Of a stretch of DNA of 64,000 bases, positions 24,688 to 47,783 are shown piece after piece. Origin of the DNA: a virus; IMG/VR virus record IMGVR_UViG_3300046171_000314, positions 64,001 through 128,000 of that record, one strand, 5' to 3'. Made by a program: the position numbers and the translations under genes. Position 1 is the first letter of the stretch, and each line of letters starts with the position of its first letter. The notes under the pieces were generated by a model. It was not told the origin of the DNA. It searched no databases and saw only the letters and a program-made list of their open reading frames with translations.

Positions 24688-25032
24688 ATGTCTGATAAGA
24701 ATTTAAGAAAGAAACTAATACGCCTTGCTCATACAAACCCTGAACTCCGAAAGGACTTGCTTCCTTTGTTGAAAGAGGCTGCGGAAACTCCTAATGAATG
24801 GTTTGACGCTTTCAGTGATTGGTGGGGTGGTATTAAGAACAGCATCCTTGCTGACGATGATAATGAAGTTCGTAACTCTCTTGGTTGGGATCTTTATCAA
24901 ATTTGTGTTGGCTATGATCAAAGTTCGAAAAGTCGAAAGGATAATGCACAGAGGGCTATTGATCAGTTTTCTAAGCGTCTTATGAAAGAGATTGATGTTC
25001 TCAATAAAAAAGCAGATGACCTTAAAAAATAA
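24688..25032 (+). CDS. leader-bearing putative virion cargo protein 1
   Basis: N-terminal LRKKLIRLAHTNPELRKDLLPLLKEA leader shared with 25047 and 47445. Confidence 0.75.
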   Translation: MSDKNLRKKLIRLAHTNPELRKDLLPLLKEAAETPNEWFDAFSDWWGGIKNSILADDDNEVRNSLGWDLYQICVGYDQSSKSRKDNAQRAIDQFSKRLMKEIDVLNKKADDLKK

Positions 25033-25046
25033 GACTTGGGGAAAAA

Positions 25047-25397
25047 ATGTCAGACTTACGCAGTAAAATTATCCGTTTGGCTCACGCAAACCCTGAACTC
25101 CGCAAAGACTTGCTTCCCTTGTTGAAAGAGGCTGTTCCGATGGTATCGAACTATGACATAAATGGATACTTCAATAGCCCACAGGAATACCTTGATGCGG
25201 AAGAGGTTCTTTTCAAGAAGAGACTTATTATGGACAACACCAATTGGAATGACAGTGGATCGCAAACGGGTTCTTTTCTGTATGCGGTTTCCCCAAAGAA
25301 TGTTCGTAAGGTCGAACAGATTATTAAGAAAATGGGTGGCACGATTACAAGTAAGGTTGCTCGTGGCGAAGATGGACAAGAGATAGTAGCAAGATAG
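25047..25397 (+). CDS. leader-bearing putative virion cargo protein 2
   Basis: LRSKIIRLAHANPELRKDLLPLLKEA leader, unrelated C-terminal domain. Confidence 0.75.
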   Translation: MSDLRSKIIRLAHANPELRKDLLPLLKEAVPMVSNYDINGYFNSPQEYLDAEEVLFKKRLIMDNTNWNDSGSQTGSFLYAVSPKNVRKVEQIIKKMGGTITSKVARGEDGQEIVAR

Positions 25398-25421
25398 TAG
25401 ATACACTCTTTCATCCTAATC

Positions 25422-25450
25422 AAGAACCCCTCTTGGGGTTCTTTTACTTT
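25422..25450 (+). terminator. rho-independent terminator
   Basis: AAGAACCCC-TCTT-GGGGTTCTT then T-rich. Confidence 0.75.
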
Positions 25451-25487
25451 TCTTGGGTATCATTGTTTCACAGACACAGGTGAAATA

Positions 25488-26420
25488 ATGGCAAGAAAAT
25501 TTAATGTGATGTATTGGTCTACCTTTGACCTATATGAAAATTGTCCTCAGAGGTTTCTTTGGCAAAGAGGTTGGAAAGGAATTGATCTTGGGTATGGAGT
25601 TGGCGAACCTATTCCTTCACCAAAGAAGGACAGTATGCACCACGCAGTTATGGGGATAGTCCTCGCAAAAGCGATGGAGGACTTATACAATGATCAACTT
25701 TATCTTGACCCTCCAACTCTTCGTGAGAAGTTAGAGGACATTGTTGAAAAGGAACTTCGCTATCAGATAACAAGAAAGCACATAGATTGGAATCAGACCT
25801 CTCACGAGGAAATGTTGAAGATTTGTTTGGATGGTATTCGTGGGTACTTGACCACAATGAAGCACAACAAACTTTTGGGGCAGTATGCAAGAAGCGAGGT
25901 CGACTTGGTTGCTGAATTGAAAGAGGGGCATCTCATTGGTGGTCGTGCAGACCTTATTATTAAGAGAGGTTCAGAGGTTGGCGTATATGATGGGAAGAAC
26001 TCTAAGAGTAAAGGAAAATATACAAGCCCTGATCAGTTGCGTTGGTACGGTCTTTTGTACAAGGCTTGTGAAGGTGTTCTTCCTGATAAGTTGGGTTTTG
26101 TTTATTTCAGATATCCTTTTGGAACTCCAAAGGAAGATGGGGGCATTGAGCAGGGGGTTGAATATGTCGATTGCAATGAGGTCGACCTGCAAACTCTTAG
26201 CGAACGTGCTATTCAAGCAAGGGATAACATAATGGCACAGAAATTTGATGCCAACCCACAACCCAAATATTGTATGTGGTGCGAATATAATGAGATGTGT
26301 GAACCAAGACAGGAGCAGAGGAAAGCCAACTCTAAGAAAAGGAAAAAGTCTTTGGGTTTGGAATTGGACACAAAGGGAGAGGTATTTTTTGAATTTTCTT
26401 TGCCTCGCACGATCAAATAA
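25488..26420 (+). CDS. PD-(D/E)XK exonuclease, Cas4/RecB-like with Fe-S cysteines
   Basis: N-terminal CP, E..., GRADL, YDGKN, QLRWY, C-terminal CMWCEYNEMC. Confidence 0.85.
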   Translation: MARKFNVMYWSTFDLYENCPQRFLWQRGWKGIDLGYGVGEPIPSPKKDSMHHAVMGIVLAKAMEDLYNDQLYLDPPTLREKLEDIVEKELRYQITRKHIDWNQTSHEEMLKICLDGIRGYLTTMKHNKLLGQYARSEVDLVAELKEGHLIGGRADLIIKRGSEVGVYDGKNSKSKGKYTSPDQLRWYGLLYKACEGVLPDKLGFVYFRYPFGTPKEDGGIEQGVEYVDCNEVDLQTLSERAIQARDNIMAQKFDANPQPKYCMWCEYNEMCEPRQEQRKANSKKRKKSLGLELDTKGEVFFEFSLPRTIK

Positions 26421-26459
26421 AGATTCTGATTCTGTATAGGACAGAAGGAGGGTTCTAAT

Positions 26460-26723
26460 ATGACAACCGAACGATTAAAACAGGCTCTTGATAAGAGAGA
26501 CAAGTTGAATACAACCTTACAACGATTGAAAGGTCGATTAGAAAAGTCTCAACAGGATAGGGATAGTATTATCTCAGAGATTAGAGATAAAAATCTAGAT
26601 CCCGAAAACCTAGATCAAACTATTTCTGTACTACAAGAAAAATACACAAATCTTCTTCAGAAGTTTGAAGAAGACCTGAACACCTTACAAAACAATCTCA
26701 CTCAATATATGGAGAAAAAATAA
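26460..26723 (+). CDS. small coiled-coil protein
   Basis: Almost entirely heptad repeats; GGAGG RBS. Confidence 0.7.
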   Translation: MTTERLKQALDKRDKLNTTLQRLKGRLEKSQQDRDSIISEIRDKNLDPENLDQTISVLQEKYTNLLQKFEEDLNTLQNNLTQYMEKK

Positions 26724-26725
26724 AA

Positions 26726-27880
26726 ATGAAACTTACGATAGCAAAAAATGACCTAATGTCTTCTTTATCCTTAACCTCTCACGCATTGGGCAAGGACACT
26801 TGGACTACCCATTATTTTGTCAGAAAGCACAACGATAGTAAAGTAGAGGTTCTTTCTACAAACCATCGATATTGCTCATCGGCACTTGCTCCTTGTCACT
26901 TGGATGGGGAACTTGGAGAATTCACACTCGAAGGAAGTCGAGTAAAGACTTGGTTGAAAAATGTGTCAGATGGCGTAGCCCTTGTATTGGATAGTGATGG
27001 AAAAGTTGTTAATGCAAAGTCGGCTCGTGGCTCTGTTCGTTGGAACTGTGCAGGCACAGGGGACTTCCCCTATTGGGATGATGCTTTGAAGAAAGCAACC
27101 ACACAATGCACAATAGATGCCAATGAGTTCTTTGAGATGCTTTCGCACGCAAAGAACTTTGTGGGCAAGCCTGATGCAAAGAGTTTAGCCTTTCGTTATA
27201 TTCGTGTTGAGAAAGGTGCGGTATTTGCAAGTAATGGTCTTTCTCTCAGCATTATATTTTGCGATAAATTGAAGAAAGCCAATTTCTGTTTCAATGCCAA
27301 CGATGCCTCCCCTCTCTTGGGATTTTTGAGCAAACTTGAGGGCGATGTCGAGATCTTGTCCACTGACAGGATCGTCTTTTTCAAGGGATCAAATGAGGCA
27401 GTATTTGGGCTGACGTTGCCTTCTAAGCGTTCGATTGCAGGACTTGGAACACTTGCTCCTGATAAGTACCAAGCCACCTTGAATAGTAGTGTAGGCTCTT
27501 GGGAAGCCACAACTAAAGACCTTCAACAAACCATAGGGTTGTTAGAGTCATCTATGAATAGCGATGATCAAGTCATTAAGGTTTCTTTTGTCAATGATGA
27601 AGATGGGGAGAAAGCCTTGTCTTTGTCTGCTGTTTCGGTCACAGGAGATGTCGACAGTTTGAATGTGGGATTGTCTTCTTATGTTGATGAAGAGGGGATC
27701 GTAGAGAAGGGGCAATACCTCAACAAAGAGATAATGTTGAAGGTATTACAAATCATTGACTCACCGACAACTACGATTTCGGTATTAAAGTTGCTCAGTA
27801 ACTCGGCTTGTTTGGAGCACGAAGTTCTTGGGTACACCTCATACTCAGTGGTCGTTCCTTTGCCCAATAAGACTTTTTAA
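26726..27880 (+). CDS. dnaN: DNA polymerase III beta sliding clamp-like protein
   Basis: 384 aa, MKLTIAKNDL start, DFP motif, ASNG..L repeat unit; context of clamp-loader genes; divergent. Confidence 0.7.
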   Translation: MKLTIAKNDLMSSLSLTSHALGKDTWTTHYFVRKHNDSKVEVLSTNHRYCSSALAPCHLDGELGEFTLEGSRVKTWLKNVSDGVALVLDSDGKVVNAKSARGSVRWNCAGTGDFPYWDDALKKATTQCTIDANEFFEMLSHAKNFVGKPDAKSLAFRYIRVEKGAVFASNGLSLSIIFCDKLKKANFCFNANDASPLLGFLSKLEGDVEILSTDRIVFFKGSNEAVFGLTLPSKRSIAGLGTLAPDKYQATLNSSVGSWEATTKDLQQTIGLLESSMNSDDQVIKVSFVNDEDGEKALSLSAVSVTGDVDSLNVGLSSYVDEEGIVEKGQYLNKEIMLKVLQIIDSPTTTISVLKLLSNSACLEHEVLGYTSYSVVVPLPNKTF

Positions 27881-28521
27881 TGTTTGAACAAGTAAAACAA
27901 GATTATGCAAAATTGCTTGGTCGGAAAGAAGCCCTACAAGAGCGGATTCTTACGACCAAGCAGAACATTACAACACTATCAAATGAAATAGAAACTCTTG
28001 ATAGTGTTGGGGTGGTCTTTCGTCAGTTGCTTGATGATGAGGTAGCCTCCTCTGTGAAAGCAGTGGAGGAACTTTTGTCAGAAGCCCTACAAGCCGTTTT
28101 CACCGATCAAAGTCTTCGTGTTCGTGCTAACATTTCTGTCCTTAGGGGCAAGGTTTCCGTAGAACTTTTGACTATTCAAGATCACGGTGGAGGGGTAATT
28201 ATTGAGGGACAGAGTTCTGAGGGTTTTGGTGGGGCTGTTACTACAGTTCAATCTATCATTCTGCGTATTCTTGTTTGCTTGAAGCGAGGTATGAGACCCT
28301 TTCTCCTTTTAGACGAGTCCTTGCCTGCCTTTGACTCTAATTATGTTCATAATATGGGGAATTTCCTATCTTCCTTATGTGGGAGGTTGGGTATAGATAT
28401 TCTTCTAGTCACACACAATCAGCATCTTGTTGAGGCTAGTGACAAAGCCTTTATCATTGATAAAAAGAAAGGGAAAGCAACCTTTTCAAAAGTTGTGAAG
28501 GGTTCTGTGTCAAAGACATAA
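27880..28521 (+). CDS. SbcC/Rad50-like ATPase, C-terminal half
   Basis: Short coiled coil, signature-like FGGA, Walker B LLLDESLPAFD, H-loop LVTH. Confidence 0.85.
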   Translation: MFEQVKQDYAKLLGRKEALQERILTTKQNITTLSNEIETLDSVGVVFRQLLDDEVASSVKAVEELLSEALQAVFTDQSLRVRANISVLRGKVSVELLTIQDHGGGVIIEGQSSEGFGGAVTTVQSIILRILVCLKRGMRPFLLLDESLPAFDSNYVHNMGNFLSSLCGRLGIDILLVTHNQHLVEASDKAFIIDKKKGKATFSKVVKGSVSKT

Positions 28522-28530
28522 GAGGGAAAA

Positions 28531-28935
28531 ATGGCGTTGTTGGGAAAAGTGGTTCAGAAATTTAAGCAGGTTCGATTTAGATACTTGAAGAAGTTTTTAA
28601 ATGATCATCTTAATAAAGAATCCAAGAACTGTGTGTACAATCGATCAACAACCTTTTCACAAGGAGGCTGCGATAATGTCGGCTTGTGTGCTTTTGGTTT
28701 TGAGGAGAAGGCTTGGCTAGGGGGTGCTTGTGATTCAAGGGTAAACCCTGAACTTGCGAAAGGGTGCGAGGACTTTCTTTCGTTGTATAAGAAAGAGGAC
28801 TTAAAGAAGGTGTTCAATGATTTCTTGGAGACATCGACTTTGGCAGATATCACAAAACACTATCCTGACCTTGCTACTCTTATGTGGGTGATGGAACAGG
28901 CGAACATAGATATAGAAGACTCAGAGGAGGAATAG
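28531..28935 (+). CDS. Cys-rich hypothetical protein
   Basis: Five Cys (CVYN, GCD, LCA, ACD, GCE). Confidence 0.6.
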   Translation: MALLGKVVQKFKQVRFRYLKKFLNDHLNKESKNCVYNRSTTFSQGGCDNVGLCAFGFEEKAWLGGACDSRVNPELAKGCEDFLSLYKKEDLKKVFNDFLETSTLADITKHYPDLATLMWVMEQANIDIEDSEEE

Positions 28936-29472
28936 GTGTCGCATTTATTAAAGTTAGTGAAGTTTGATAAAGTAAAGCCTTCTATTCAGCCCCTTGCGTT
29001 TGAGTTTCAGGCTAACAAGGAGGCTACTCCTTTTTTGGTTTCGACAAGCAAATCTTTGTTGTGGATAACAGAAGCCCCAACAAATGTTGTTCGAGCAGCA
29101 GTTAGACCCAAAACAAAGATACAAGATTTTTATCTTGAGGTTATTCAAGAAGTAGTGGAGGTGGGGGAAGAGTGTTCTTGGGGAAATAATTACTCTTTTA
29201 ATAAAGAGGGGGTGTTGTCTGCTGTTTCCTATGTAAAATCTTATGGCATTGAGGAGGTGGTTTGTCTATTAAGTTCCTCTACAAAAAGCAGAACTAATTT
29301 TTTGCAGGGAACAGGGGTGGAGTTTTCTATTTGTAATTGGTTGCCGCAAGACTTTATTGCTGTCGTCCCCAAAGACAGATCTCTATTAGGGTTCGTTGGT
29401 GTGATGAACTCAGGGTTTGTTTCGGTAATACAAAATCCAAGCAGGTGTTTGGCTTTTGCAGGTGCTATATGA
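28936..29472 (+). CDS. hypothetical protein
   Basis: GAGGAGG RBS, GTG start. Confidence 0.6.
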   Translation: MSHLLKLVKFDKVKPSIQPLAFEFQANKEATPFLVSTSKSLLWITEAPTNVVRAAVRPKTKIQDFYLEVIQEVVEVGEECSWGNNYSFNKEGVLSAVSYVKSYGIEEVVCLLSSSTKSRTNFLQGTGVEFSICNWLPQDFIAVVPKDRSLLGFVGVMNSGFVSVIQNPSRCLAFAGAI

Positions 29473-30191
29473 GAGAATGGCTTGAAAATTCATTGTACGA
29501 CTTAACGGAAGATCAGGAGACGTATCTCTTAGGTCGAGGAGTTCTCAGAGAGGAGATTCGTAATGTGAACTTTCAATCTTGGTGTCCTGAGAAGCCTTGT
29601 CCTGCAAAAACCACAGAAGGGCAAGACTTTGTTAAGAGATTTGGGGAGTACGGTCATCGTCTTAATGATCTTCTATTGACTCCTTTGTACTCTCCTTCTA
29701 GCAAGTTGGTTGGTGTTGAAGGTCGTTCCATAGATGGCAACAAAACAATAATGAGAGTCCTTTCCTTTGAGTCTAAGTGGTGTCCGATATGGATAGGGCT
29801 TGGCAAAGCAGAGATGCTCAGGATTTGGAATGGGTATGATGTGTGGATAGTAGAAGGGATCTTCGATCTTACAACTCTGAGAGCCATAATGCCTCACGTA
29901 GTTGTTCTAGGGTCTTTGAGAGCCAACCTCACCAAGAAACATTTAGAGTTCCTTAGTCGCTTTGTGAAGGGCACAATTTACGTTGCTTACGACAACGATG
30001 AGACAGGACAAAAGGCTATGTACGGTCACTTCGATCCTAATGGTCGAAGACAACAAGGTATCATAGAAAAAATTAACAAATTACGATTAAACGCAGTGCC
30101 TGTTCGGTATAAGGGTGGCAAAGACCCGAATGAGATATGGCAACAAGGTGGCTACGATCAAGTTCGTAAATCTTTCATTAACTACCTATAA
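29469..30191 (+). CDS. DnaG-type primase catalytic (TOPRIM) core lacking zinc-binding domain
   Basis: YLLGRG, VGVEGR, IVEGIFD, AYDNDETG, KDPNE; start revised to MREWLE. Confidence 0.85.
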   Translation: MREWLENSLYDLTEDQETYLLGRGVLREEIRNVNFQSWCPEKPCPAKTTEGQDFVKRFGEYGHRLNDLLLTPLYSPSSKLVGVEGRSIDGNKTIMRVLSFESKWCPIWIGLGKAEMLRIWNGYDVWIVEGIFDLTTLRAIMPHVVVLGSLRANLTKKHLEFLSRFVKGTIYVAYDNDETGQKAMYGHFDPNGRRQQGIIEKINKLRLNAVPVRYKGGKDPNEIWQQGGYDQVRKSFINYL

Positions 30192-30206
30192 TATAAGGAG
30201 CATAAT

Positions 30207-30677
30207 ATGCCTACTGAAATATGGAAAGCAACAGAGGACATACAGGATTCTGTTAAAAAACTTGTTGCGAATCATCACCCTGACCTAATACTTGCCGCTG
30301 ACGAGATTGTGGTTCTCTTTCGTGAGAAAGCCACAAAGAAAGGTGGGAAAGTCATCTTAGGATCAAGCAAGAAAGCCCCCTCGATATTGAATGTTCTATC
30401 TGATGTTGAGTGTAAGTTTATTATCGAACTTGCGGCAGACGAATGGGTGGGTCTTACATCAAACCAACAAACCGCTTTGTTGGATCACCACTTGTGTGCG
30501 TTTCAAGTAGAAGAAGACCCCAAGACAGGAGATGTGAAATACTTTATCGCTCCTCCTGACATCGGATACTATCTTGATGAATATGAGCGGTATGGGGATT
30601 GGAGACCAAAGCAAGAAGAGGACACCACTGTGAAAGTGGATACAGTAACAGCAGACACCATCTTAGATGGACAGTAA
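30207..30677 (+). CDS. putative phage metallopeptidase-like protein
   Basis: FIIEL..DEW..L...QQ.ALLDHHLC, PPD...E.ERYG pattern; HExxH degenerate. Confidence 0.6.
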   Translation: MPTEIWKATEDIQDSVKKLVANHHPDLILAADEIVVLFREKATKKGGKVILGSSKKAPSILNVLSDVECKFIIELAADEWVGLTSNQQTALLDHHLCAFQVEEDPKTGDVKYFIAPPDIGYYLDEYERYGDWRPKQEEDTTVKVDTVTADTILDGQ

Positions 30678-30698
30678 GCAGTTTTAATTGGCTTTATT

Positions 30699-30726
30699 AA
30701 AGGTGGGCTATTGCTCACCTTTTTTT
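30699..30726 (+). terminator. rho-independent terminator
   Basis: AAAGGTGGGC-TATT-GCTCACCTTT then T-run. Confidence 0.75.
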
Positions 30727-30756
30727 GTTTATGGGGTGGTTGGAACGTAAGAGCAC

Positions 30757-30765
30757 TTCGGTATA
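30757..30765 (+). promoter_or_regulatory. class B putative promoter
   Basis: TTCGGTATA about 25 nt before dnaX start. Confidence 0.5.
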
Positions 30766-30789
30766 TTCAAAAACAGATAGGAGAATACA

Positions 30790-32172
30790 ATGGCATTTGA
30801 TACAAAATATCGTCCTAATGGATATGACTCGGTTATTGGGCAAGAAGCCAATGTAAAGGTTCTACAGAGCATCGTGAAGAATGGATCAGGCTTTCACCAA
30901 TCTTATGTATTTTGTGGGCAGCACGGTACAGGAAAAACCACATTGGGTCGGATTCTTGCACGAGCCTTGCTTTGCGAAAATCCTCAGGAGGGTAATCCTT
31001 GCGATCAGTGCTCTTCTTGTTTGTCTATTTTGGAGAATGGTAGTTCGGAGGGGTTCATAGAAATAGATGCGGCTACAAACTCAGGCAAGGGAGACATTAA
31101 AGAGATAGTGGATCAATTAGAATACGCTACTGTGACAGGAAAGAAAAGGATTTATCTATTTGATGAGGCACATGAGTTATCAAGACAAGCCCTTGATGGT
31201 TTATTGAAGCCGATGGAAGATACAGAGGTGGGATCTGACGATAAAAAGTTGGTGTGCATCTTTTGTACAACCGAGCCTGAGAAGATGCGAAAGACCATCT
31301 TCTCAAGGTGTGCCCCTGCTTTTGTTATTCGTGTTCCAACCCCTCAGGATATAGCAGACAGACTTGTATATGTCTGTGAGAAGGAGGAAATAGAATATGA
31401 CTATGAAGCCCTTGTATCTATTTCGGAGTACTGTTCCTGCCACGTTCGAGATTCTCTTAAGTCTTTACAAGGTGTCTCTTCTTTGGGCAAGGTCGATATG
31501 GCAGCCATTAAGCAATACCTGCGATTAGATGTACAGATAAAATGTTTAGAGGTTCTTGATAACTTAAGATCCGATTTTGCAAAGGCAATCGAGAACTTCG
31601 ATGCTTTAAGGATTATTGCTTCTCCTGCCTCTTGTTACGAGCAACTATCCAAGTTGTCCTTGATGGCATATAGAAAATCATTGGGGGTTTCAAAGATCCC
31701 CGTTTATTTGGATTCCAAAAAGATAGACTCAATCTCTAAACAAGGGCAGCAACTTATAGTTCTCACCCAAAGTTTGCTTTCACATCCACATAATCCCTCT
31801 CACGAAATGCTACTATGTGATCTGTCTAATTATCATTTTGGACAAGCCCCTATACAGACTATAACTAAAGTAGTCACCCAAACTTTAGAACCAAAAACAC
31901 AACCAACACAAAAAAATTCTCAACAGATACCACAAAGTTCGGTATCGTACCAACAACAAAAGCCTACAATTATAAATGGGGTATATCGAGAAGCAAGGGC
32001 GGTTAAGAAACCTCCTAGAAAATCAGAGAGTGTTCCGAAAAAAGAAGGAATACCTTTTGAAGTTTTTAAGGATTTCCTAGACGCTCGCTATCAGGAGTTG
32101 GAACACGAACATGGACAAAAGAGACGAACAAACTTGGGTGGTTTTGGAACTTTCTCACGCAGGAGAGTCTAG
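30790..32172 (+). CDS. dnaX: DNA polymerase III gamma/tau clamp-loader ATPase
   Basis: KYRP..Y..VIGQ, GQHGTGKTT, C..PC..C..C, EIDAA, DEAH, LLKPME, TTEPEK, TIFSRC. Confidence 0.95.
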   Translation: MAFDTKYRPNGYDSVIGQEANVKVLQSIVKNGSGFHQSYVFCGQHGTGKTTLGRILARALLCENPQEGNPCDQCSSCLSILENGSSEGFIEIDAATNSGKGDIKEIVDQLEYATVTGKKRIYLFDEAHELSRQALDGLLKPMEDTEVGSDDKKLVCIFCTTEPEKMRKTIFSRCAPAFVIRVPTPQDIADRLVYVCEKEEIEYDYEALVSISEYCSCHVRDSLKSLQGVSSLGKVDMAAIKQYLRLDVQIKCLEVLDNLRSDFAKAIENFDALRIIASPASCYEQLSKLSLMAYRKSLGVSKIPVYLDSKKIDSISKQGQQLIVLTQSLLSHPHNPSHEMLLCDLSNYHFGQAPIQTITKVVTQTLEPKTQPTQKNSQQIPQSSVSYQQQKPTIINGVYREARAVKKPPRKSESVPKKEGIPFEVFKDFLDARYQELEHEHGQKRRTNLGGFGTFSRRRV

Positions 32173-33252: not shown

Positions 33253-33263
33253 TTTCTCTATAT
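33248..33263 (+). promoter_or_regulatory. class A putative promoter at start of virion region
   Basis: ATTAGT-TTCT-CTATAT. Confidence 0.55.
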
Positions 33264-33288
33264 TCCTTCATTACAAGAAGGAGGAGTC

Positions 33289-34032: not shown

Positions 34033-34040
34033 GGTACAGC

Positions 34041-39913: not shown

Positions 39914-39916
39914 GAA

Positions 39917-40438: not shown

Positions 40439-40448
40439 GAGATAAAAC

Positions 40449-41066: not shown

Positions 41067-41076
41067 GAGGAAAAGT

Positions 41077-41877
41077 ATGTCTGAAGAAAGCAAGCCTGAG
41101 ATAGATAAGCAGGCAGTATTGGCGGCTCTGCCATCAGATGTTTCTCGTATCCAAGTAAAGGATACCGAAGATAAGATTAGGTTTCGTTTGTTGGATGAGG
41201 TTCGTTGGGATGACGAACTACAATTTAATAAACATGGACAGCCTATTGTAATGCGAGGTTCTTTGGGTCGCCCCAAAGATGATTCTCGTTCTCCCATACC
41301 AACGGTTTTGGAGGAGGAGAAAGACCCAAATGTCTTTGTGCCCATAGTTAAGAGCAAAGGGAAAAAATCATTTATTAAGAATAAAGCACCTACCGCTCCA
41401 ACACAGCCTACGATACAAACCCCTGTCGCAGTTGTTCCTGCAACAAGTATCCCCCAACCTACCCCTGCAACGAGTGGGGTTCTTGGAACAATAAAAGAAG
41501 ACCCTGAGAGCGTGGATGTTCTGTACCACGTTATGCAAGGCTTGGCAGAAGAGGCGGAGGCTATGGCACACGCAAGGCTTTTGTTGGAGTCACAGGGTAA
41601 GAACGCCTCCAATGTATCAGCCAAGCGAGTATCGGCACTAAGGGCTGTCGGAGATACTTGGTTGAAAAGAAAAGAGCAAATTGGGTCAAAGGGTGTGGAC
41701 TTGAATTCTCTTGCTTTCAAAAGGGTTTTCACATTTATTATGGATACCTTTCGAGTGTCTTTGATGGTGAGTGGTGTTCGTGCGGAGCAAATCGAAGTAA
41801 TCTTCGCAAAACTTGCGGCAAAGATCGACGACGATTGGATGAAAGAGGCTCAGAAGAAAGTCGAAGGCGAGGAATAA
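41077..41877 (+). CDS. hypothetical protein, possible terminase small subunit
   Basis: Immediately upstream of TerL; helical C-terminal domain; function from position only. Confidence 0.4.
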   Translation: MSEESKPEIDKQAVLAALPSDVSRIQVKDTEDKIRFRLLDEVRWDDELQFNKHGQPIVMRGSLGRPKDDSRSPIPTVLEEEKDPNVFVPIVKSKGKKSFIKNKAPTAPTQPTIQTPVAVVPATSIPQPTPATSGVLGTIKEDPESVDVLYHVMQGLAEEAEAMAHARLLLESQGKNASNVSAKRVSALRAVGDTWLKRKEQIGSKGVDLNSLAFKRVFTFIMDTFRVSLMVSGVRAEQIEVIFAKLAAKIDDDWMKEAQKKVEGEE

Positions 41878-41880
41878 TCT

Positions 41881-43698
41881 ATGGCAGGTCTTGCTGACAT
41901 TGCAATGGGTGCAGGCAGGGTTCGTGGCAGTGAAAGTCGAGATGTTGTAGATATTATCACTTTCATTGAGAGCGAATGGGGCTTGAAGATGAAACTTTTC
42001 CCCATTCAAAGAGTGATCTTGAAAGCCCACTATGGGATACCTCTTGATGACAAAGTTAAGGATGTGCCTGTATCGGATTGGAGGCGTATCAATAACAGAA
42101 TGATGACCGAGTTAGAGTACCTCCAATACCTTTATGATGATGGTCGGTGTAACATTAACTATGTTGAAGAAGGACACGAAAGACGAGAAATGATTCTCTC
42201 TGTTGGTCGAAGATCAGGAAAAACTACAATTAGTGCTTGTGTTGCTGCCTATGAGACGTACAAGTTGATTTCAAAAGGTGATCCACAAGCCTTTTATGGG
42301 TTGCCTGCAAGCAACGTTATACAGTTGATATCTGTTGCGACAGATAAAGACCAAGCAGGTTTGTTGTACAACGAGGTATCAGGACACTTTCGGAACTGTA
42401 CTTTTTTCACACCGTATATGGCTAACAACACAATGTCTTACGCAAGGTTTCAAACACCTATGGACATTGATAGGTATGGGTCTTATGCAGAGGACAATAG
42501 TGCCAATGCGAACATCAAGGTAACATTCAGGTCTTGTGTTGCTAAGGGTCTTCGTGGTGCAGGTAATATTTGCGTCATCCTTGATGAGGTTGCTCACTTT
42601 ACGGATAAAGGACAGAGTGGTGCAGAGGCGGTTTATAATGCGGTCACACCTTCGACATCGGCATACTCACAGAAAGACCCCAATGACAAATCAAAGCCTG
42701 TCGGACCTGTTGAAGGTCGAATTATTTCGATTAGTTCCCCTCTTGGAAAACAAGGTTTGTTCTATAAGTTGTTTCAAACTGCTATGGGCAGCGGAAAGGC
42801 AGCGGAGAATATGTTGGCTGTTCAAGCCCCTACTTGGGAGGTAAATCCTACTGTTCCTGCAAGCGAATTTGAGAAGCATTATGTGAAAGACCCACGAGTA
42901 TTTTTTACGGAATATGGTGCAGAGTTTTCAGATAGAACTAGGGGTTGGATAGAAGATAGGGTTGACTTAATGGCTTGTGTCATTGATGGTCGGAAAGCAA
43001 AGCAACGAGGTATTCCTCGATCTCCGCACTTTATGGGAATTGACTTGGGCTTAGTGGGTGATGGCAGTGCCGTTGCTATTGGGCACATAGAAGATGGAAA
43101 GGTGATTCTTGATTGTGTGGAACAAATAAAGGCAGGCGAAGGGGCATTTGTCGACAAGGAAAGACTAGAGTTTGATGATGTTGCTGATTGGGTTTATGAA
43201 TGGACAAAGAAGTTCTACATAAAAGAAGGAATGTTCGATCAATGGGCAGGAATACCTTTTGAACAGGCTCTTGCGAAAAGAGGGTTGAAAGTTATAAAGT
43301 CGAAGCACTTTACAAAGACCCTAACATCTCAAATGTTTCAGAATTTTAAGAACTTAATGTTTGATGAGAAGTTGGAATTATACAATGACCCTTCTGAGGA
43401 AGAGGAGTTGTCAGACTATCTCCAAGAGTTGCTTGAACTTCAAGCCCAAATACATAGCAAACACCTCATTACAGTAGAAGCCCCCCAAGTAGATGGAAAA
43501 CACGATGATATGTCAGATGCCATAGTTCGTATGGTGTGGTGTGCTTCCCAAAATATGTCAAAGCAGTTAAGGATGACTACATCGAGTGGAAAGGTTTTCG
43601 GTAATGCTCCAATAAATTCTAATAGGCGACACGTAAAGAGTAGGGTTAGGGCTATGAAAGGTGGTTCTCATCCAAGTCGATACAAGAAGAAAAGATGA
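41881..43698 (+). CDS. terL: terminase large subunit
   Basis: Walker A GRRSGKTT, Walker B VILDEVAH, coupling ISSP, EYGAEF, nuclease GIDLG...D and KHDDMSDA. Confidence 0.95.
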   Translation: MAGLADIAMGAGRVRGSESRDVVDIITFIESEWGLKMKLFPIQRVILKAHYGIPLDDKVKDVPVSDWRRINNRMMTELEYLQYLYDDGRCNINYVEEGHERREMILSVGRRSGKTTISACVAAYETYKLISKGDPQAFYGLPASNVIQLISVATDKDQAGLLYNEVSGHFRNCTFFTPYMANNTMSYARFQTPMDIDRYGSYAEDNSANANIKVTFRSCVAKGLRGAGNICVILDEVAHFTDKGQSGAEAVYNAVTPSTSAYSQKDPNDKSKPVGPVEGRIISISSPLGKQGLFYKLFQTAMGSGKAAENMLAVQAPTWEVNPTVPASEFEKHYVKDPRVFFTEYGAEFSDRTRGWIEDRVDLMACVIDGRKAKQRGIPRSPHFMGIDLGLVGDGSAVAIGHIEDGKVILDCVEQIKAGEGAFVDKERLEFDDVADWVYEWTKKFYIKEGMFDQWAGIPFEQALAKRGLKVIKSKHFTKTLTSQMFQNFKNLMFDEKLELYNDPSEEEELSDYLQELLELQAQIHSKHLITVEAPQVDGKHDDMSDAIVRMVWCASQNMSKQLRMTTSSGKVFGNAPINSNRRHVKSRVRAMKGGSHPSRYKKKR

Positions 43699-43708
43699 GG
43701 GTGCTTCA

Positions 43709-43951
43709 ATGTCAAAACCTATTCGCTCTGATTACCGATTGGTTCAGAGATTAATAAAGATACAGGGAAAAAAGAAGGGTCTTTCCCCCACGAGTGGGGA
43801 TTTCGATAAGATCATTCGTGCCTTTGGTCAGGTAGGAGGTTCTTGGGAGAAGTTATTCAAGGGAAGTGTGGATGATATGTCCCTCTTGAAAAAAATAATC
43901 AAAGTCGGCATTGAAAAAGAACTCTTTACAAAGAAAGACACTTGGAGTTGA
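43709..43951 (+). CDS. hypothetical protein
   Basis: Start revised to MSKPIRSD. Confidence 0.6.
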   Translation: MSKPIRSDYRLVQRLIKIQGKKKGLSPTSGDFDKIIRAFGQVGGSWEKLFKGSVDDMSLLKKIIKVGIEKELFTKKDTWS

Positions 43952-43952
43952 T

Positions 43953-44522
43953 ATGAGATTGATACACCATTCAATGGGAAATGCAGAGCACGATGTAGAG
44001 TTAAACTTTCTTGGGGATAGATTTCCTGTCAAAGCACACCCAATACTGAGAGAGAGCGGTTGGCGTGGGGGTCAATGGGTAATGTATGTGACAGCCCCTA
44101 CTAGCGAAGAATTTATGGTTGTCAAAAGTGATGGCACAGCCTGTGCAGGATTTCTGCTTTTTCCAAGTGAGAATTACGACCCTGTTCCTCCCTTTGGAAC
44201 AGGGGTGGGATCTACTGAAAATTACATAGGGATTCAGCCTGCGGCTAATCCAAATAACGCCATCACGATGGTGAATGGAGGAACACGAGCCTACTTTAAG
44301 GTTTTTGAAACAGTTGCTTTAAGTGGTGGAACAAGATCAGGAGGGGCGATTACTTATTCTTTGAATGAGGAGATAAAGATATCGGAGAATGGCTTACTCT
44401 GTAATGATAGTAATGTGCAATTTGGGCTTGCAGGGATTACAACTCCTGTCGTCATTGGTATAGTGTCAGCAATACCTAATCCTGCTAATGGGAATAGGCT
44501 TTGTGTGGATATAAAGTATTGA
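43953..44522 (+). CDS. capsid decoration-like protein (paralog of 55595)
   Basis: FETV...TY......S.NG.L...IGI shared with 55595. Confidence 0.6.
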   Translation: MRLIHHSMGNAEHDVELNFLGDRFPVKAHPILRESGWRGGQWVMYVTAPTSEEFMVVKSDGTACAGFLLFPSENYDPVPPFGTGVGSTENYIGIQPAANPNNAITMVNGGTRAYFKVFETVALSGGTRSGGAITYSLNEEIKISENGLLCNDSNVQFGLAGITTPVVIGIVSAIPNPANGNRLCVDIKY

Positions 44523-44523
44523 T

Positions 44524-44823
44524 ATGGGAAGACTTAGAGCAAGATTAGCAACAAATCCTGTTGAAAAGGATATATTAAAGAACTTGGCAGAGGCGGAACG
44601 GTCTTTATTGAAAGTTCTCGACATTGCTCGTTCGAGTCGTAAGGACAAAAATCTCCGACTCGGTAGATTGTCTGAAATTGAGCAGAAGGTACAATCGGCT
44701 ATTCGCTTGATAGATAATCCCCCAAGCATTACATCTAAGATAGATGCACAAGACCCTGATTTAAATCCGACAGTTCGTGATAGAAAACGAATGGAACGGA
44801 TGGAAAAGAGAGGTAAGAAATGA
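44524..44823 (+). CDS. basic hypothetical protein
   Basis: Coupled ORF before portal. Confidence 0.6.
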   Translation: MGRLRARLATNPVEKDILKNLAEAERSLLKVLDIARSSRKDKNLRLGRLSEIEQKVQSAIRLIDNPPSITSKIDAQDPDLNPTVRDRKRMERMEKRGKK

Positions 44824-46505
44824 CAAAGAAAAACGAGGGTGAAAAAGAAGTAGCCAAGTTAAAATCACGTCCTAATGTTCAGACAGGCAAGCCTCGAAAA
44901 CTAACAGCAAGTTCAATGCGGATTGCAGGGTTACAGACTTACTCAGGGTCAGAGGGTTCAGGAGGGAATTTTTATTCTCCTGAGTTGAGCACGGACTTTC
45001 TTGAACTTCCTCAGAGTATGCACGAGCGATGGAACTACTTTCGGTTCTTCTATCGGTCTGAACCTTTCGTCGGGCAGGCAATTGACTTACACACTGAGTT
45101 GCCCCTATCTAAGATTAGGCTTGGATTTCCTAAGTACATAAAGAACAGAGATATGGCGAAAGAGGCTTTGGTGTTTTGTGAGAGATGGTCAAAGAAGATT
45201 GGGCTGCTCCATAGAATGATAGAAATTGTCCACGAATATAATCTTATTGGTGAGGTCTTTGTTTTTATGGAGGACACGACTCCTGACCCCCCTAAAAGGT
45301 TGAGATATGAAACTGTCCGAAGGTTGGAAGAAGATGGCACTCTCTTTGAGGAAGAGATTGAACACGAAAACGCAGACGAAAAAGAGATTGAGTGGTTAAA
45401 GAAAAACTACTCAGGTTGGACAGCCATTCGAGTGCTTCCTCCTGAGCAAGTACATGTTCAATCCTTTCCGTTCACCGACGAAAAGATAATGGAACTTATT
45501 CCTGACAGTAAGACAAAGGATATCATTGCCCAATCAGACGCAGGGGACATTCACGCCAAAAGGGTGGTTGATTCAATGCCAAAGGGTGTTGTTGATTCGG
45601 TTCGTGAAGGGAACAACATTCCTTTGAACACTGATCCTGAGGCAGGTTCTTTTGTGACCTACCTTGCTCGTAAAAAATCTCAGTACGAAGATAGAGGGCA
45701 TTCTATTCTTGAACGGTGTATTCGGACACTTGTTTTCAGAGATAAATTACGCCAAGCAAATACAAGTATTGCCTCTCGTCATATGACACCTATTCGATTG
45801 GTCTTTGCTGAGGATATGGATGTCCAAGATGTAGAAGATTTGAGAGAACAGGTCGACTTGGCTCTTGCTGATCCCGACTTTTCGATTATCGCCAACTTTC
45901 AAATTAATTGGGAAGAGATGGGTTCAGATCAAAGACTCTTGGAGTTGTCAGGAGAGTATGACTTGACCGATAGACAGTTGTATGCAGGTCTTGGGGTAAC
46001 AGAGGGGCTACTTAGCGGTGAAAGTTCTTACAGTGGGGATAGAATAAACCTTGAGGTCATCAACACTCGCTATATGCTTCTTCGAGAAATCTTACAGGAT
46101 TTGGTTGAGGAAAAGATGCTCAAACCAATGTGTGCTCGTATGGGTTTCATAGAAGAAGATGAGTATGGCAATGAGCAGGTGTTATATCCGACACTATCCT
46201 TTACTCGTTTGGCTCTCAGAGATAACAATGACACCTTTGATGCGTTGTTCAACCTGTATCAAAAGGGTTCGCTTGATGTTGATATTATTCTCGAACTCTT
46301 GAACATTGATCCTGTGGCAACCAAAGAGAAATTAGAGAGAGATTTATTTACTATTAATGATGGCTCATTCAATGAGGTCTTGCGAGGTATCTACGGTGAT
46401 GTGGGTCGAGCATTGGCAGAGAACAGCGATGCGGTAGAGATTATTGCGAAGAACTTGGGCTTAGACTATGCTGTTCCTGAGGAAGAGGGTGGCGGCAGGT
46501 TCTAA
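44820..46505 (+). CDS. portal protein
   Basis: 561 aa downstream of TerL; P.VGQAIDLHTELPLS, EYNLIGEVF, RGHSILERC, GLGV...LL.GE pattern of large-phage portals. Confidence 0.85.
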   Translation: MTKKNEGEKEVAKLKSRPNVQTGKPRKLTASSMRIAGLQTYSGSEGSGGNFYSPELSTDFLELPQSMHERWNYFRFFYRSEPFVGQAIDLHTELPLSKIRLGFPKYIKNRDMAKEALVFCERWSKKIGLLHRMIEIVHEYNLIGEVFVFMEDTTPDPPKRLRYETVRRLEEDGTLFEEEIEHENADEKEIEWLKKNYSGWTAIRVLPPEQVHVQSFPFTDEKIMELIPDSKTKDIIAQSDAGDIHAKRVVDSMPKGVVDSVREGNNIPLNTDPEAGSFVTYLARKKSQYEDRGHSILERCIRTLVFRDKLRQANTSIASRHMTPIRLVFAEDMDVQDVEDLREQVDLALADPDFSIIANFQINWEEMGSDQRLLELSGEYDLTDRQLYAGLGVTEGLLSGESSYSGDRINLEVINTRYMLLREILQDLVEEKMLKPMCARMGFIEEDEYGNEQVLYPTLSFTRLALRDNNDTFDALFNLYQKGSLDVDIILELLNIDPVATKEKLERDLFTINDGSFNEVLRGIYGDVGRALAENSDAVEIIAKNLGLDYAVPEEEGGGRF

Positions 46506-46506
46506 T

Positions 46507-46914
46507 CTACCTAACACTGTGTCGAGGATTACCTGTTAGATTGGCAAGGGAGATGTGGAACGTTCTGTTCTCCCTTATATTAATTCCAAGATCCCTTCTA
46601 ATACTATCCACAAACTTTTCTAATGCTTTTTGAGTGGTTGGGGTTACTTTCAGTGCCCAAGTTTCACGACCTTGTTTTTCGTCTATTCTGTACCAAATTT
46701 TATTCTCAAATTGAATCTTTGGTATTGTAGGGAACACAAACTCTTTCGAATTAAGAATATCCTTGTAAGGAGATAAGATATCATAATGTATAAGAGTGAT
46801 GTGGGTAACACTTGGGTCAAGAACTACTGCTCTTTCGGGAAAAGAAAACCTCTTGTGTATTTCTCCAAAAGAGCGATCTTTTAACATCAGTATTCCATCG
46901 AATTTGATTTTCAT
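46507..46914 (-). CDS. 2H phosphoesterase
   Basis: Two HxT/S motifs: THITLI and FHISLA; start revised to MKIKFDG. Confidence 0.75.
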   Translation of the reverse strand: MKIKFDGILMLKDRSFGEIHKRFSFPERAVVLDPSVTHITLIHYDILSPYKDILNSKEFVFPTIPKIQFENKIWYRIDEKQGRETWALKVTPTTQKALEKFVDSIRRDLGINIRENRTFHISLANLTGNPRHSVR

Positions 46915-46952
46915 TGTTGCTCCGAGTTTATCTTTCCTGAATAATAGAAAGA

Positions 46953-47348
46953 TTATTTGGCGGCTTGTGCTTTCTCTAACAGTTGTTTGATGTGCCACGA
47001 GCCAATTAAGGAACTGTTGAGAGTCTGCTCGATAGCCATTTGATCCATCTCTAATCGTTGATCGAGCCAAATAGCAAGTCGAATAACGTGCTTACAGATG
47101 TTCTTTCTTTTACTGCCTTCACATTCACACCTAACGGTTCTGTCTTTTATACTAATGCTTGTGTTGTATACCTGAGCATTTTCAAGAGGGGTGTGTGTCA
47201 TACCAACAACAACTCCGCTTTCAATATTGACAGAAGGGATTTCAAGGGCGACCTTGCTTGCTCTTTTCTTTCCCTCTGCTCCTTGTGCTTCAATGAGTTT
47301 GCTTAGGGTTTTTCGGTATTCTATGGTCTTTGATAGTACATTCATCAT
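46953..47348 (-). CDS. SWIM zinc-finger protein
   Basis: Y.TSI.....RCECEGSKRKNICKHV; TTTCGGTAAT motif upstream. Confidence 0.8.
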   Translation of the reverse strand: MMNVLSKTIEYRKTLSKLIEAQGAEGKKRASKVALEIPSVNIESGVVVGMTHTPLENAQVYNTSISIKDRTVRCECEGSKRKNICKHVIRLAIWLDQRLEMDQMAIEQTLNSSLIGSWHIKQLLEKAQAAK

Positions 47349-47398
47349 ATCTCCTATTGCTTGTAATAGGATTACCGAAATGGGGTTGAGATCTGATC

Positions 47399-47414
47399 GT
47401 TAATTCCTCTATAT
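47399..47414 (+). promoter_or_regulatory. class A putative promoter
   Basis: GTTAAT-TCCT-CTATAT. Confidence 0.55.
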
Positions 47415-47444
47415 TTCTTTCAAAGTGAACATAAGGAGAAGAAC

Positions 47445-47783
47445 ATGTCTAATTTAAGAAGCAAAATCATTCGACTTGCTCACGCAAAACCTGAGTTGCG
47501 AAAGCACTTACTACCTCTTGTCACTAATAAAAAGGCTTACAAAGACCCTTGTAATGGAGGTTCTTACTTCGGTGATAGTTATGACGAGACTATGGTAGGT
47601 CTTGAAGAATGTCACGATGAAAAAATTAATGAAAAAAAAGTCGACGATGCTTTTGAATTACTCACAATATTAAGTAACGAAGATGATTTTGAATTTCCAA
47701 ATGGAATGGAAACAGTAAGTTTGAAATTTCGTCTTAATCGGGCAGAGTCTGAATTCGTGAAGTGGCATTACGACAACGTATAA
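47445..47783 (+). CDS. leader-bearing putative virion cargo protein 3
   Basis: MSNLRSKIIRLAHAKPELRKHLLPLVTNKKA leader then acidic domain. Confidence 0.75.
   Translation: MSNLRSKIIRLAHAKPELRKHLLPLVTNKKAYKDPCNGGSYFGDSYDETMVGLEECHDEKINEKKVDDAFELLTILSNEDDFEFPNGMETVSLKFRLNRAESEFVKWHYDNV

What the first reader, a model, noticed from the sequence alone, without database searches (positions are those of the whole stretch)
24688..47537. Portable ~30-aa leader on three unrelated small proteins: candidate virion cargo-loading signal
Seen: ORFs 24688, 25047 and 47445 begin with near-identical leaders (LRKKLIRLAHTNPELRKDLLPLLKEA / LRSKIIRLAHANPELRKDLLPLLKEA / LRSKIIRLAHAKPELRKHLLPLVTNKKA). The first two are also highly similar at DNA level. 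Similarity stops abruptly at a K-x-A motif, after which the domains are unrelated. The 24688/25047 pair is a self-contained cassette (class A motif, own terminator) inside the sbcD-nuclease replication operon. 47445 has its own class A motif inside an oppositely oriented island. Established: T4 internal proteins use an N-terminal capsid-targeting sequence removed by the prohead protease. Inference: this is an analogous but different module that loads diverse, possibly anti-defence, payloads into the head for co-injection.
Basis: partly seen in the sequence, partly recalled or inferred. Interest (0 to 1): 0.85.

Follow-up and report, generated by a model that had tools for sequence, protein, structure and literature searches.

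The report
Portable two-helix tag on huge-phage proteins
Three small genes in this window (five in the whole phage contig) begin with the same 27-residue two-helix peptide. One clade of uncultured ~0.5-Mb phages attaches this peptide to thousands of unrelated accessory proteins, so it is most likely an undescribed address or docking tag, perhaps for loading proteins into the phage head, though that is unproven.

Summary
ORFs 24688, 25047 and 47445 share an N-terminal module, L-R-x-x-[LIV]-I-R-L-A-[HY]-x-x-P-E-L-R-x-x-L-L-P-L-L-K-x-A, followed by unrelated sequence. Two more copies lie outside the window on the same 148-kb contig. The copies differ mostly by synonymous changes, so selection acts on the peptide, not on the DNA.

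A profile search found 3,369 protein clusters, all from metagenomes. Pfam and PHROGs hold no family for it. Thirteen of 15 records tested carry the same major capsid protein (69-94% identical), so this is one clade of roughly 0.45-0.5-Mb phages, with 5-15 copies per record. Fifty-nine tagged proteins fall into 53 unrelated cargo groups.

The module is a basic helical hairpin. It is mostly N-terminal but also occurs internally, at C-termini and in repeats. One cargo family, with a ParB/Srx fold, carries either this tag or a short 'RVAxRY' tag.

Capsid loading with clipping at K-x-A is the leading reading (about 0.4) but is unproven. Conserved K-x-A-[ASG] sites occur only in the capsid protein, the scaffold-like protein and the protease. 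Against this, tagged genes are not enriched in the head module.

This scan has already noted similar hairpin tags in other huge-phage genomes.

The parts
24638..24651 (+). It overlaps the stop codon of the SbcD-like gene.
   Evidence: 22 matches in the contig against about 12 in shuffles, and about 17 of them lie 25-45 nt upstream of an ORF start. Sequence read. Its function as a promoter is inferred.
24688..25032 (+). Tagged gene 1 (114 aa). The tag is residues 6-31 (nt 24703-24780), ending in KEA. The cargo is an 82-aa acidic helical domain with no homologue in the five related records searched and no family match beyond weak sub-threshold hits.
25047..25397 (+). Tagged gene 2 (116 aa). The tag is residues 4-29 (nt 25056-25133), ending in KEA. 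The cargo is unrelated to that of gene 1.
25422..25443 (+). Intrinsic-terminator-like hairpin plus T-run that closes the two-gene cassette.
   Evidence: 9-bp stem with 5 G-C pairs, followed by TTACTTTT.
47400..47413 (+). Promoter-like motif TTAATTCCTCTATA, 31 nt before the ATG of ORF 47445.
47445..47783 (+). Tagged gene 3 (112 aa). The tag is residues 4-31 (nt 47454-47537), ending in KKA. The cargo is strongly acidic (charge -12). The gene lies in the variable island between the portal gene and the topoisomerase-IB-like gene of the head module.
52836..54293 (+). Prohead (head-maturation) protease and candidate processing enzyme (inferred). It carries one conserved [KR]-x-A-[ASG] site near its N-terminus.
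   Evidence: phrog_18299, E 9e-13.
54326..55390 (+). Scaffold-like, very acidic protein (net charge -47) and candidate docking partner for the basic tag (inferred). It has two conserved K-x-A-[ASG] sites at domain borders.
   Evidence: The tag profile gives no significant hit on this protein.
56293..57165 (+). HK97-type major capsid protein, 84-94% identical in related records. Conserved K-L-A-A-S at residues 26-30. It marks the phage clade that carries the tag.

Best explanation
The 27-residue module is a self-folding, basic helix-turn-helix hairpin that acts as a portable address tag. It docks fast-turning-over accessory proteins of one huge-phage clade onto a single conserved partner.

The most likely version is this. 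During prohead assembly the tag binds the acidic scaffold or core, or the inner capsid surface, so that tagged proteins are enclosed. The prohead protease then cuts after K-x-A and frees N-terminally tagged cargo inside the head, to be delivered with the DNA. Tag-only repeat proteins would be processed core or filler proteins.

Shown: the tag exists, is under peptide-level selection, is portable, is confined to this clade, and is predicted to form a hairpin. One cargo family carries either this tag or a second tag. K-x-A-[ASG] sites are conserved in the usual protease substrates.

Inferred: the identity of the partner, encapsidation, cleavage and injection.
For: 1. Real and under peptide-level selection: five copies in the contig, differing mostly by synonymous changes.
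2. Portable: 3,369 clusters at E<=1e-3. Fifty-nine tagged proteins from six records give 53 BLAST-distinct cargo groups. They hit 12 different PHROG families of unknown function, some very strongly, such as phrog_7964 at E 8e-67. This suggests the tag is added to families that PHROGs catalogues as phage protein families; whether those PHROG members themselves lack the tag was not checked.
3. Viral and clade-bound:
   - Only one INPHARED record matches, with 11 places in it.
   - Only three short MAG (metagenome-assembled genome) contigs match among 185,579 species genomes.
   - There are 58 IMG/VR loci.
   - Related records carry 6-15 copies each.
   - The same capsid protein, 69-94% identical, is in 13 of 15 records.
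4. Hairpin structure: AlphaFold2 (AF2) predicts H3-15 and H17-29 in the contig's own 160-aa protein (pLDDT 84.7). A natural 63-aa two-tag protein folds as four helices (pLDDT 85, pTM 0.63).
5. Interchangeable tags: the ParB/Srx-fold cargo carries this tag in six of the eleven aligned sequences (the contig's own protein and five homologues) and an RVAxRY-type tag in others. The swap point is at K-x-A/S. In related record G002 the same cargo has an RV(L)A-type N-terminus.
6. Possible cut site: conserved [KR]-x-A-[ASG] sites occur in the capsid protein (1), the scaffold-like protein (2) and the protease (1). None occur in terminase, portal, topoIB-like, g52324 or g55595.
7. Charge complementarity: the tag carries +2 to +7 and the scaffold-like protein -47.
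8. Position: tagged genes recur in the portal-to-topoIB island in 3 of 6 records, and lie between two head genes in a fourth.
9. Cargo types: ParB/Srx, RelA/SpoT-like and a JGI-annotated RelE are typical of phage-delivered effectors (PMC5512222).
10. Precedent: the T4 internal proteins with their capsid-targeting sequence (PMC3012670).
Against: - There is no proteomic, expression or structural evidence for packaging or cleavage.
- The module also occurs internally (99 of 261 strict matches), at C-termini (34) and 2-5 times per protein. A simple cleavable leader does not predict this.
- K-x-A is present in only 43-70% of copies. C-terminal copies end directly after LLPLL.
- Tagged genes are not enriched in the head module (5 of 60, about 3.7 expected). 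Two of the five in this contig sit in the recombination/replication operon.
- The tag profile does not hit the scaffold-like protein or the protease tail, so no partner has been identified.
- The K-x-A test on head proteins was post hoc (roughly p 0.02). The scaffold-like protein is rich in A and K, and the capsid protein is so conserved that any motif in it is conserved.
Confidence: 0.4

Rival explanations
1. The module is a generic pairing ('sticker') unit. Hairpins pair with each other into four-helix bundles, so single-tag proteins form dimers or mixed complexes. Multi-tag proteins with charged linkers act as multivalent hubs of a cytoplasmic assembly or condensate, with no link to the virion.
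For: - A natural 63-aa protein made of two tags is predicted as a compact four-helix fold.
- Many proteins are only tags plus highly charged low-complexity linkers and other mini-motifs.
- Tags occur at either terminus and between domains.
- Tagged genes are scattered over the genome, including the replication operon.
Against: - AF2 returned no contact map and no multimer model, so pairing between separate chains is untested.
- This contig encodes no multi-tag hub.
- Promiscuous pairing of 5-15 unrelated proteins has no obvious use.
- This reading does not explain why a short RVA-type helix can replace the hairpin on the same cargo.
Confidence: 0.27
2. The tag addresses proteins to a non-capsid phage structure or to a host target, for example a replication compartment, the phage's actin-like filament, or a host complex such as RNA polymerase or the ribosome.
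For: - Clade-wide conservation of the tag implies one conserved partner, but the partner is unidentified.
- The 24688/25047 pair sits between recombination nucleases.
Against: - No candidate receptor emerged.
- The tag is absent from the cultured phages held (INPHARED) and nearly absent from the cellular genomes scanned (three short MAG contigs), so the partner is probably phage-encoded.
- The K-x-A match to head-protein sites is not explained.
Confidence: 0.2
3. The module is a basic nucleic-acid-binding hairpin that tethers proteins to phage DNA or RNA.
For: - The net charge is +2 to +7, with invariant Arg residues.
- The ESM Atlas structural neighbours of the first 32 residues include helix-turn-helix and sigma-region-4 proteins (generic matches).
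Against: - The most conserved positions are hydrophobic (L, I, L, A, L, L, L, P, L), which fits a protein-protein interface better.
- No Pfam helix-turn-helix family matches, even at E<=1.
- Foldseek and VIA-align gave only generic helical matches.
Confidence: 0.08
4. The conserved stretch is mainly a DNA-level recombination handle for shuffling cassettes, and the peptide is incidental.
For: - The cassettes are autonomous units (promoter motif, genes, terminator) inserted between unrelated operon genes.
- Within-genome tags are slightly more alike than between-genome tags (75.3% against 71.4%, permutation p<0.001).
- An earlier first-reader note proposed this reading.
Against: - DNA identity between copies is only 58-81%, with differences concentrated at synonymous sites while the peptide stays nearly invariant.
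- The peptide is conserved across records whose G+C content ranges from 42% to 63%.
- Exchange at the tag may still happen, but it cannot explain the conservation.
Confidence: 0.03

Closest known systems
Capsid-targeting sequence (CTS) of phage T4 internal proteins IPI, IPII, IPIII and Alt (PMC3012670, PMC9026906)
   Same: A conserved N-terminal peptide sits on otherwise unrelated, fast-evolving small proteins. The genes lie partly in variable islands. The junction residue pattern recurs in capsid and scaffold proteins, as expected of a prohead-protease site.
   Different: - This module is a 27-residue two-helix hairpin, not a ~10-residue peptide, and has no sequence similarity to the CTS.
- Its junction is K-x-A rather than (L/I)-x-E.
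- It also occurs internally, at C-termini and in tandem.
- It is found on thousands of clusters, with 5-15 or more copies per genome.
- Packaging and cleavage have not been shown.
Propeptide-bearing ejection and inner-body proteins of giant phages such as SPN3US and phiKZ (PMC5694885, PMC7411985, PMC10052503)
   Same: These are large phages that load many proteins into the head and trim them with the prohead protease.
   Different: Those proteins are paralogue families with long propeptides cut at A/S/G-X-E. None carries a short shared portable hairpin. Only one record in the INPHARED cultured-phage collection carries this tag.
Encapsulin cargo-loading peptides (PMC8346489) and, from my own knowledge, the encapsulation peptides of bacterial microcompartments
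   Same: A short portable peptide at either terminus, joined by a flexible linker, addresses unrelated cargo to the inside of a protein shell. In encapsulins the shell has the HK97 fold.
   Different: Those peptides are about 10-18 residues, either a single helix or extended, and work in cellular compartments without portal, terminase or protease. No sequence similarity was seen.
Phage polyvalent and MuF-fusion effectors (PMC5512222)
   Same: Both deliver varied effector domains (ParB/Srx, RelA/SpoT, RelE-like) encoded near virion genes. A large topoIB-like multidomain protein follows the portal gene in this clade.
   Different: There, the effectors are fused into one giant protein or onto a structural domain. 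Here, each small protein carries its own short tag.

Membership tests
T4-type capsid-targeting sequence (CTS) system | Short (~10 aa) N-terminal peptide related to the T4 CTS | tested here: not met
   The module is a 27-residue hairpin. Neither Pfam nor PHROGs links it to internal-protein families.
T4-type capsid-targeting sequence (CTS) system | The tag ends at the prohead-protease consensus (L/I)-x-E | tested here: not met
   An L-x-E reading is possible in three of the five leaders (L-K-E in ORFs 24688 and 25047; L-L-E in 137941). E occupies that position in only 33% of 353 instances. The conserved residues are K (71%) and A (69%).
T4-type capsid-targeting sequence (CTS) system | Tag junction matches cleavage sites of the phage's own capsid, scaffold and protease proteins | tested here: inconclusive
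   Conserved [KR]-x-A-[ASG] sites occur only in the capsid protein, the scaffold-like protein and the protease, and not in five other head-module proteins. The test was post hoc and on few sites, and actual cleavage is unknown.
T4-type capsid-targeting sequence (CTS) system | Tagged proteins are found in virions with the tag removed | not testable with these tools
   There is no cultured member of the clade and no proteome.
Any curated protein family (Pfam-A, PHROGs v4, NCBIfam) | Significant profile match over the tag | tested here: not met
   Pfam gave nothing over the tag at E<=1. PHROGs gave only E 0.0025-0.08 matches to small unannotated families. NCBIfam gave nothing.
Encapsulin cargo-loading peptide or microcompartment encapsulation peptide | A dedicated shell without portal or terminase, and a short single-helix or extended peptide | tested here: not met
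   The shell gene is a phage capsid protein within a terminase-portal-protease module. The tag is a two-helix hairpin. Microcompartment shell genes were not searched for.
ParB/sulfiredoxin superfamily (cargo of contig ORF 138464-138946 only) | ParB/Srx alpha+beta fold | tested here: met
   An AF2 model (pLDDT 84.7) gives about 30 listed Foldseek rows, all ParB, Noc, KorB, sulfiredoxin, SbnI or serine kinase apart from two uncharacterised proteins, at probability 0.85-1.0 and E from 1e-3. A profile search hits Noc at E 0.07 over the same region.
ParB/sulfiredoxin superfamily (cargo of contig ORF 138464-138946 only) | Conserved arginine-rich nucleotide-binding motif (GxxR) | tested here: inconclusive
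   The family has an invariant D-G-N-S-T where Noc has G-E-R-R. An invariant R-A-R-E-K-G lies upstream. Activity cannot be judged.

The most novel reading that the evidence does not exclude
One clade of ~0.5-Mb phages uses a small vocabulary of interchangeable peptide tags to load a very large, rapidly changing set of effector proteins into the capsid. The vocabulary includes this hairpin, the RVAxRY helix and others. The prohead protease releases the cargo at K-x-A, so the tags would work as a programmable cargo-addressing code for a virus particle, far larger than the T4 internal-protein system.
Probability: 0.3. Interest if true: 0.85.

Novelty: new variant of a known kind. Interest (0 to 1): 0.64.

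Why it matters
If the tag is an address label, a single profile search would list the whole set of proteins that these uncultured giant phages send to one destination: more than 3,000 clusters, almost all of unknown function. If that destination is the capsid, the list is a catalogue of proteins injected with the DNA. Such proteins are a rich source of host-takeover and counter-defence functions. The 27-residue peptide would also be a ready-made handle for packing foreign proteins into phage heads.

Even if the destination is different, a tag this conserved on cargo this varied points to a central, undescribed hub in huge-phage biology. It also matters for annotation. At least one gene call in the public collection (the 136-aa product at contig 137941) starts after the tag, so pipelines can miss it.

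Tried and rejected
- **DNA or RNA element rather than a peptide.** Rejected by the codon analysis.
- **Cellular domain.** Rejected: only three short MAG contigs in the species genome set, and one uncultured record among the INPHARED phages.
- **Known family.** Pfam, PHROGs and NCBIfam gave nothing usable. The ESM Atlas gave only generic helix-hairpin neighbours. Foldseek against the PDB found nothing at E<=0.001. VIA-align wide gave Z<=6.2, all generic helical bundles.
- **The scaffold-like protein's 'KCIRIAQA' helix, or the protease C-tail 'L[IV]RLA', as a relative of tag helix 1.** The tag profiles give no score on either. I treat these as chance resemblance.
- **A shared hub protein with an internal tag.** The four internally tagged proteins in relatives are unrelated to each other.
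- **Enrichment of tagged genes in the head module.** None: 5 of 60 against about 3.7 expected.
- **Homologues of the four other cargo domains in five related records.** None found. A second cargo family (contig ORF 137941) gave only close tagged relatives, so the tag-swap result rests on one family.
- **Promoter timing.** The ATAAT-N4-YTATA motif is real, and relatives have a CTAT element 15-20 nt before the ATG. I could not assign it to early or late expression, and the head genes do not clearly share it.
- **Literature.** Six full-text searches found no description of this motif.
Full report
**Observation.** Their first ~30 residues align with 16 invariant positions, and the remainder is unrelated.

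A profile of the three leaders, run on the six-frame translation of the whole 147,878-bp contig (the window is 64001-128000), finds five copies at E 4e-20 to 3e-11. Nothing else scores below E 0.39. The two extra genes are adjacent, at contig 137941-138432 and 138464-138946.

The cassette description also holds:
- ATAAT-N4-CTATA lies at 24638-24651 and TTAAT-N4-CTATA at 47400-47413. The same motif precedes the third transcription unit.
- Both two-gene cassettes end in a terminator-like hairpin.
- The first cassette sits between a calcineurin-like (SbcD-like) phosphoesterase and a PD-(D/E)XK nuclease.

**Peptide, not DNA.** Over the 69-nt core the five copies are only 58-81% identical. The differences are concentrated at third codon positions and at synonymous Leu/Arg first positions. 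For example, 25047 and 47445 differ at 14 synonymous and 3 non-synonymous codons. The peptide is also kept in related records whose G+C content ranges from 42% to 63%. Selection is therefore on the protein. A recombination handle or an RNA structure cannot explain the conservation.

**Extent.** A profile search of 1.84 billion cluster representatives gave 3,369 proteins at E<=1e-3 and 483 at E<=1e-10. Every one I could trace comes from metagenomes and has no name. Pfam, PHROGs and NCBIfam hold no family for the tag.

The tag is viral:
- Only one record in the INPHARED phage collection has it, a 485-kb uncultured phage with 11 places.
- A pattern scan of one genome for each of 185,579 prokaryote species found three short MAG (metagenome-assembled genome) contigs.
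- IMG/VR gave 58 loci, mostly on 50-485-kb contigs.

Five such records hold 6, 13, 15, 11 and 10 copies.

All five share this contig's 290-aa HK97-type capsid protein at 85-94% identity. So do eight of ten further records that carry the tag or its companion mini-motifs, at 69-89%. The two exceptions are fragments estimated at 24-33% complete. The near-complete records are 485 and 497 kb. The tag therefore belongs to one clade of roughly 0.45-0.5-Mb phages, and this 148-kb contig is probably about a third of a genome (inference).

**Anatomy.** A logo of 353 instances reads L93 R89 x x [LVI] I87 R85 L94 A99 [H66/Y22] x x P97 E63 L76 R99 x x L79 L95 P96 L85 [LIV] K71 x A69. After that, information falls below 0.7 bit. 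The net charge is +2 to +7.

AlphaFold2 (AF2) predicts two helices, 3-15 and 17-29. Confidence dips over residues 21-30, just before the cargo domain, in the contig's own 160-aa protein (pLDDT 84.7, pTM 0.69). A natural 63-aa protein that consists of two tags is predicted as four helices (pLDDT 85, pTM 0.63). Searches of solved structures gave only generic helical matches.

In the six related records, 47 of 54 tagged ORFs carry the tag immediately after the start codon, four carry it between unrelated domains, and one has it at both ends. In the best 150 database hits, which are biased towards repeats, the tag is N-terminal 122 times, internal 137 times and C-terminal 47 times, with up to five copies per protein. 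Many of these proteins are only tags, highly charged linkers and a few other recurring mini-motifs. C-terminal copies stop right after LLPLL.

**Cargo.** Fifty-nine tagged proteins from the six records form 53 BLAST-distinct groups once the tag is masked. Four of this contig's five cargo domains have no homologue in the five relatives, including the 92%-complete record. Pfam recognises almost none of the cargo. PHROGs places 13 of the 58 scanned proteins in 12 different families, all of unknown function and some matched very strongly. The tag therefore appears to be added to families that PHROGs catalogues as phage protein families; whether those PHROG members themselves lack the tag was not checked.

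The one cargo I could identify is that of contig ORF 138464. It has a ParB/sulfiredoxin fold. About 30 Foldseek rows are listed, and all but two uncharacterised proteins are ParB, Noc, KorB, sulfiredoxin, SbnI or serine kinase. A profile search hits Noc at E 0.07. Other cargo includes a RelA/SpoT-like domain and a protein that JGI annotates as RelE. These domain types are typical of effectors that phages deliver with their DNA (PMC5512222).

**Interchangeable tags.** The eleven aligned sequences of the ParB/Srx cargo family (this contig's protein plus ten homologues) carry different N-terminal pieces. Six (the contig's own protein and five homologues) have this hairpin. Others have a short 'RVAxRY/W' helix, either directly at the N-terminus or after an extra domain. 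The two kinds of N-terminus meet the shared linker at a K-x-A/S position.

In related record G002 the same cargo lies directly downstream of a homologue of the tail-like gene that lies about 1 kb downstream of the tagged pair in this contig, and there it starts with an RV(L)A-type helix. The RVA motif is strongly over-represented in this contig: 16 matches against 0.8 expected. It also occurs in g52324, a conserved gene that overlaps the start of the protease gene. This swap is the best evidence that the hairpin is a functional address or docking unit rather than part of any one protein's fold. It rests on one cargo family, because a second family gave only close tagged relatives.

**Evidence on the head-loading idea.** The window holds a head module that is syntenic in all six records: terminase, portal, a variable island, a topoIB-like protein, g52324, protease, a very acidic scaffold-like protein (charge -47), g55595 and the capsid protein.

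In favour:
- ORF 47445 lies in the portal-to-topoIB island. Tagged genes lie in that same island in two other records, and between two head genes in a fourth.
- The junction tetrapeptide [KR]-x-A-[ASG] is conserved in at least five of six genomes at one site in the capsid protein (residues 26-29), at two domain borders of the scaffold-like protein, and at one site in the protease. It is conserved nowhere in terminase, portal, topoIB-like, g52324 or g55595. That is the pattern expected of a maturation-protease site. The test was post hoc, rests on four sites (roughly p 0.02), and is helped by the scaffold-like protein's composition.
- The basic tag and the acidic scaffold-like protein have complementary charge.

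Against:
- Tagged genes are not enriched in head modules overall: 5 of 60, about 3.7 expected.
- Two of this contig's five tagged genes lie in the recombination operon.
- K-x-A is only 43-70% conserved.
- The internal, C-terminal and repeated copies do not fit a simple cleavable leader.
- No partner was identified. Resemblances of tag helix 1 to a scaffold helix and to the protease C-tail are not statistically supported.

**Verdict.** The capsid-loading mechanism remains an analogy with some circumstantial support, which I put at about 0.4.

The main rival, at about 0.27, is a self-pairing module that builds complexes unrelated to the virion. The two are not exclusive, because a tag-based protein matrix inside the head would satisfy both.

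Within-genome tags are slightly more alike than between-genome tags (75.3% against 71.4%, permutation p<0.001). That fits either tuning to a genome-specific partner or spread within a genome.

I found no paper describing the motif.

Noticed in passing
window 55551-55569 (upstream of ORF 55595-56278): A hairpin, CTCCC-ttgtaaaca-GGGAG, lies about 25 nt before the start of g55595, the gene just upstream of the capsid gene. Its stem and its AAAC-containing loop are kept in all six related records despite G+C of 42-63%. It may be a regulatory or processing RNA element of the capsid operon.
   Followed up: partly
window 48256-49413 and 49415-51502: The topoisomerase-IB-like gene after the portal island is split into 385-aa and 695-aa ORFs here. 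In four of the five relatives read (G001, G002, G003, G005) it is part of a single 976-1247-aa multidomain protein; in G004 the ORF seen at this position is 502 aa. This looks like a polyvalent, possibly head-associated protein.
   Followed up: partly
contig-wide; in the window e.g. 52324-52890 (g52324, 'TRVARAWV') and 56293-57165 (capsid protein, 'LRVARVFM'): The short motif R[VI]Axx[YWF][LIVM] occurs 16 times in frames of 60 aa or more, against 0.8 expected from shuffles. It sits at N-termini, at C-termini and inside proteins. It is conserved in g52324, a zinc-ribbon protein whose gene overlaps the protease gene, in most of the six records. It replaces the hairpin tag on homologues of one cargo.
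   Followed up: partly
window 56293-57165: The capsid protein is 84-94% identical among records whose portal (67-84%), terminase (57-77%), protease (40-63%) and g55595 (46-51%) proteins are much more diverged. That is unusually strong constraint on the shell protein.
   Followed up: partly
window 54326-55390: The scaffold-like protein has a net charge of -47. Its N-terminal part, a helical domain and a ~45-residue C-terminal tail ending in 'LSKLW[EQ]SAP[DN][IV]S' are conserved, and its acidic middle is hypervariable.
   Followed up: partly
L113:190-1467 (-), record G002: A 425-aa tagged protein has a C-terminal part that reads like a RelA/SpoT-type nucleotidyltransferase ('GYRDLMFNITYPNGHIGELQVNLKPM'). 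It lies next to an untagged ParB/Srx gene and a tail-like gene.
   Followed up: no
loci L063-L101 (records G002-G005): In the higher-G+C relatives the tagged genes have no Shine-Dalgarno sequence. They have a CTAT[ACG] element 15-20 nt before the ATG, often as TAG-N6-CTAT. This suggests a clade-specific promoter with very short leaders.
   Followed up: partly
contig 137941-138432 (L001:1941-2432): The public gene call for this ORF (P0195, 136 aa) starts inside the tag at an internal codon, so automated annotation can hide the tag.
   Followed up: no
proteins P0001-P0012, P0021 and L095:969-1652: Other mini-motifs recur alongside the tag, in varying order, in the same huge-phage clade. Examples are 'GCEKLPEGxMRDNCEKK', 'FEEGKxxDPTKNMSPEDKKKW', 'DEPYMKGxFTQQE' and 'GEVPEAFKKQW'. 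This suggests a larger vocabulary of short modules.
   Followed up: partly
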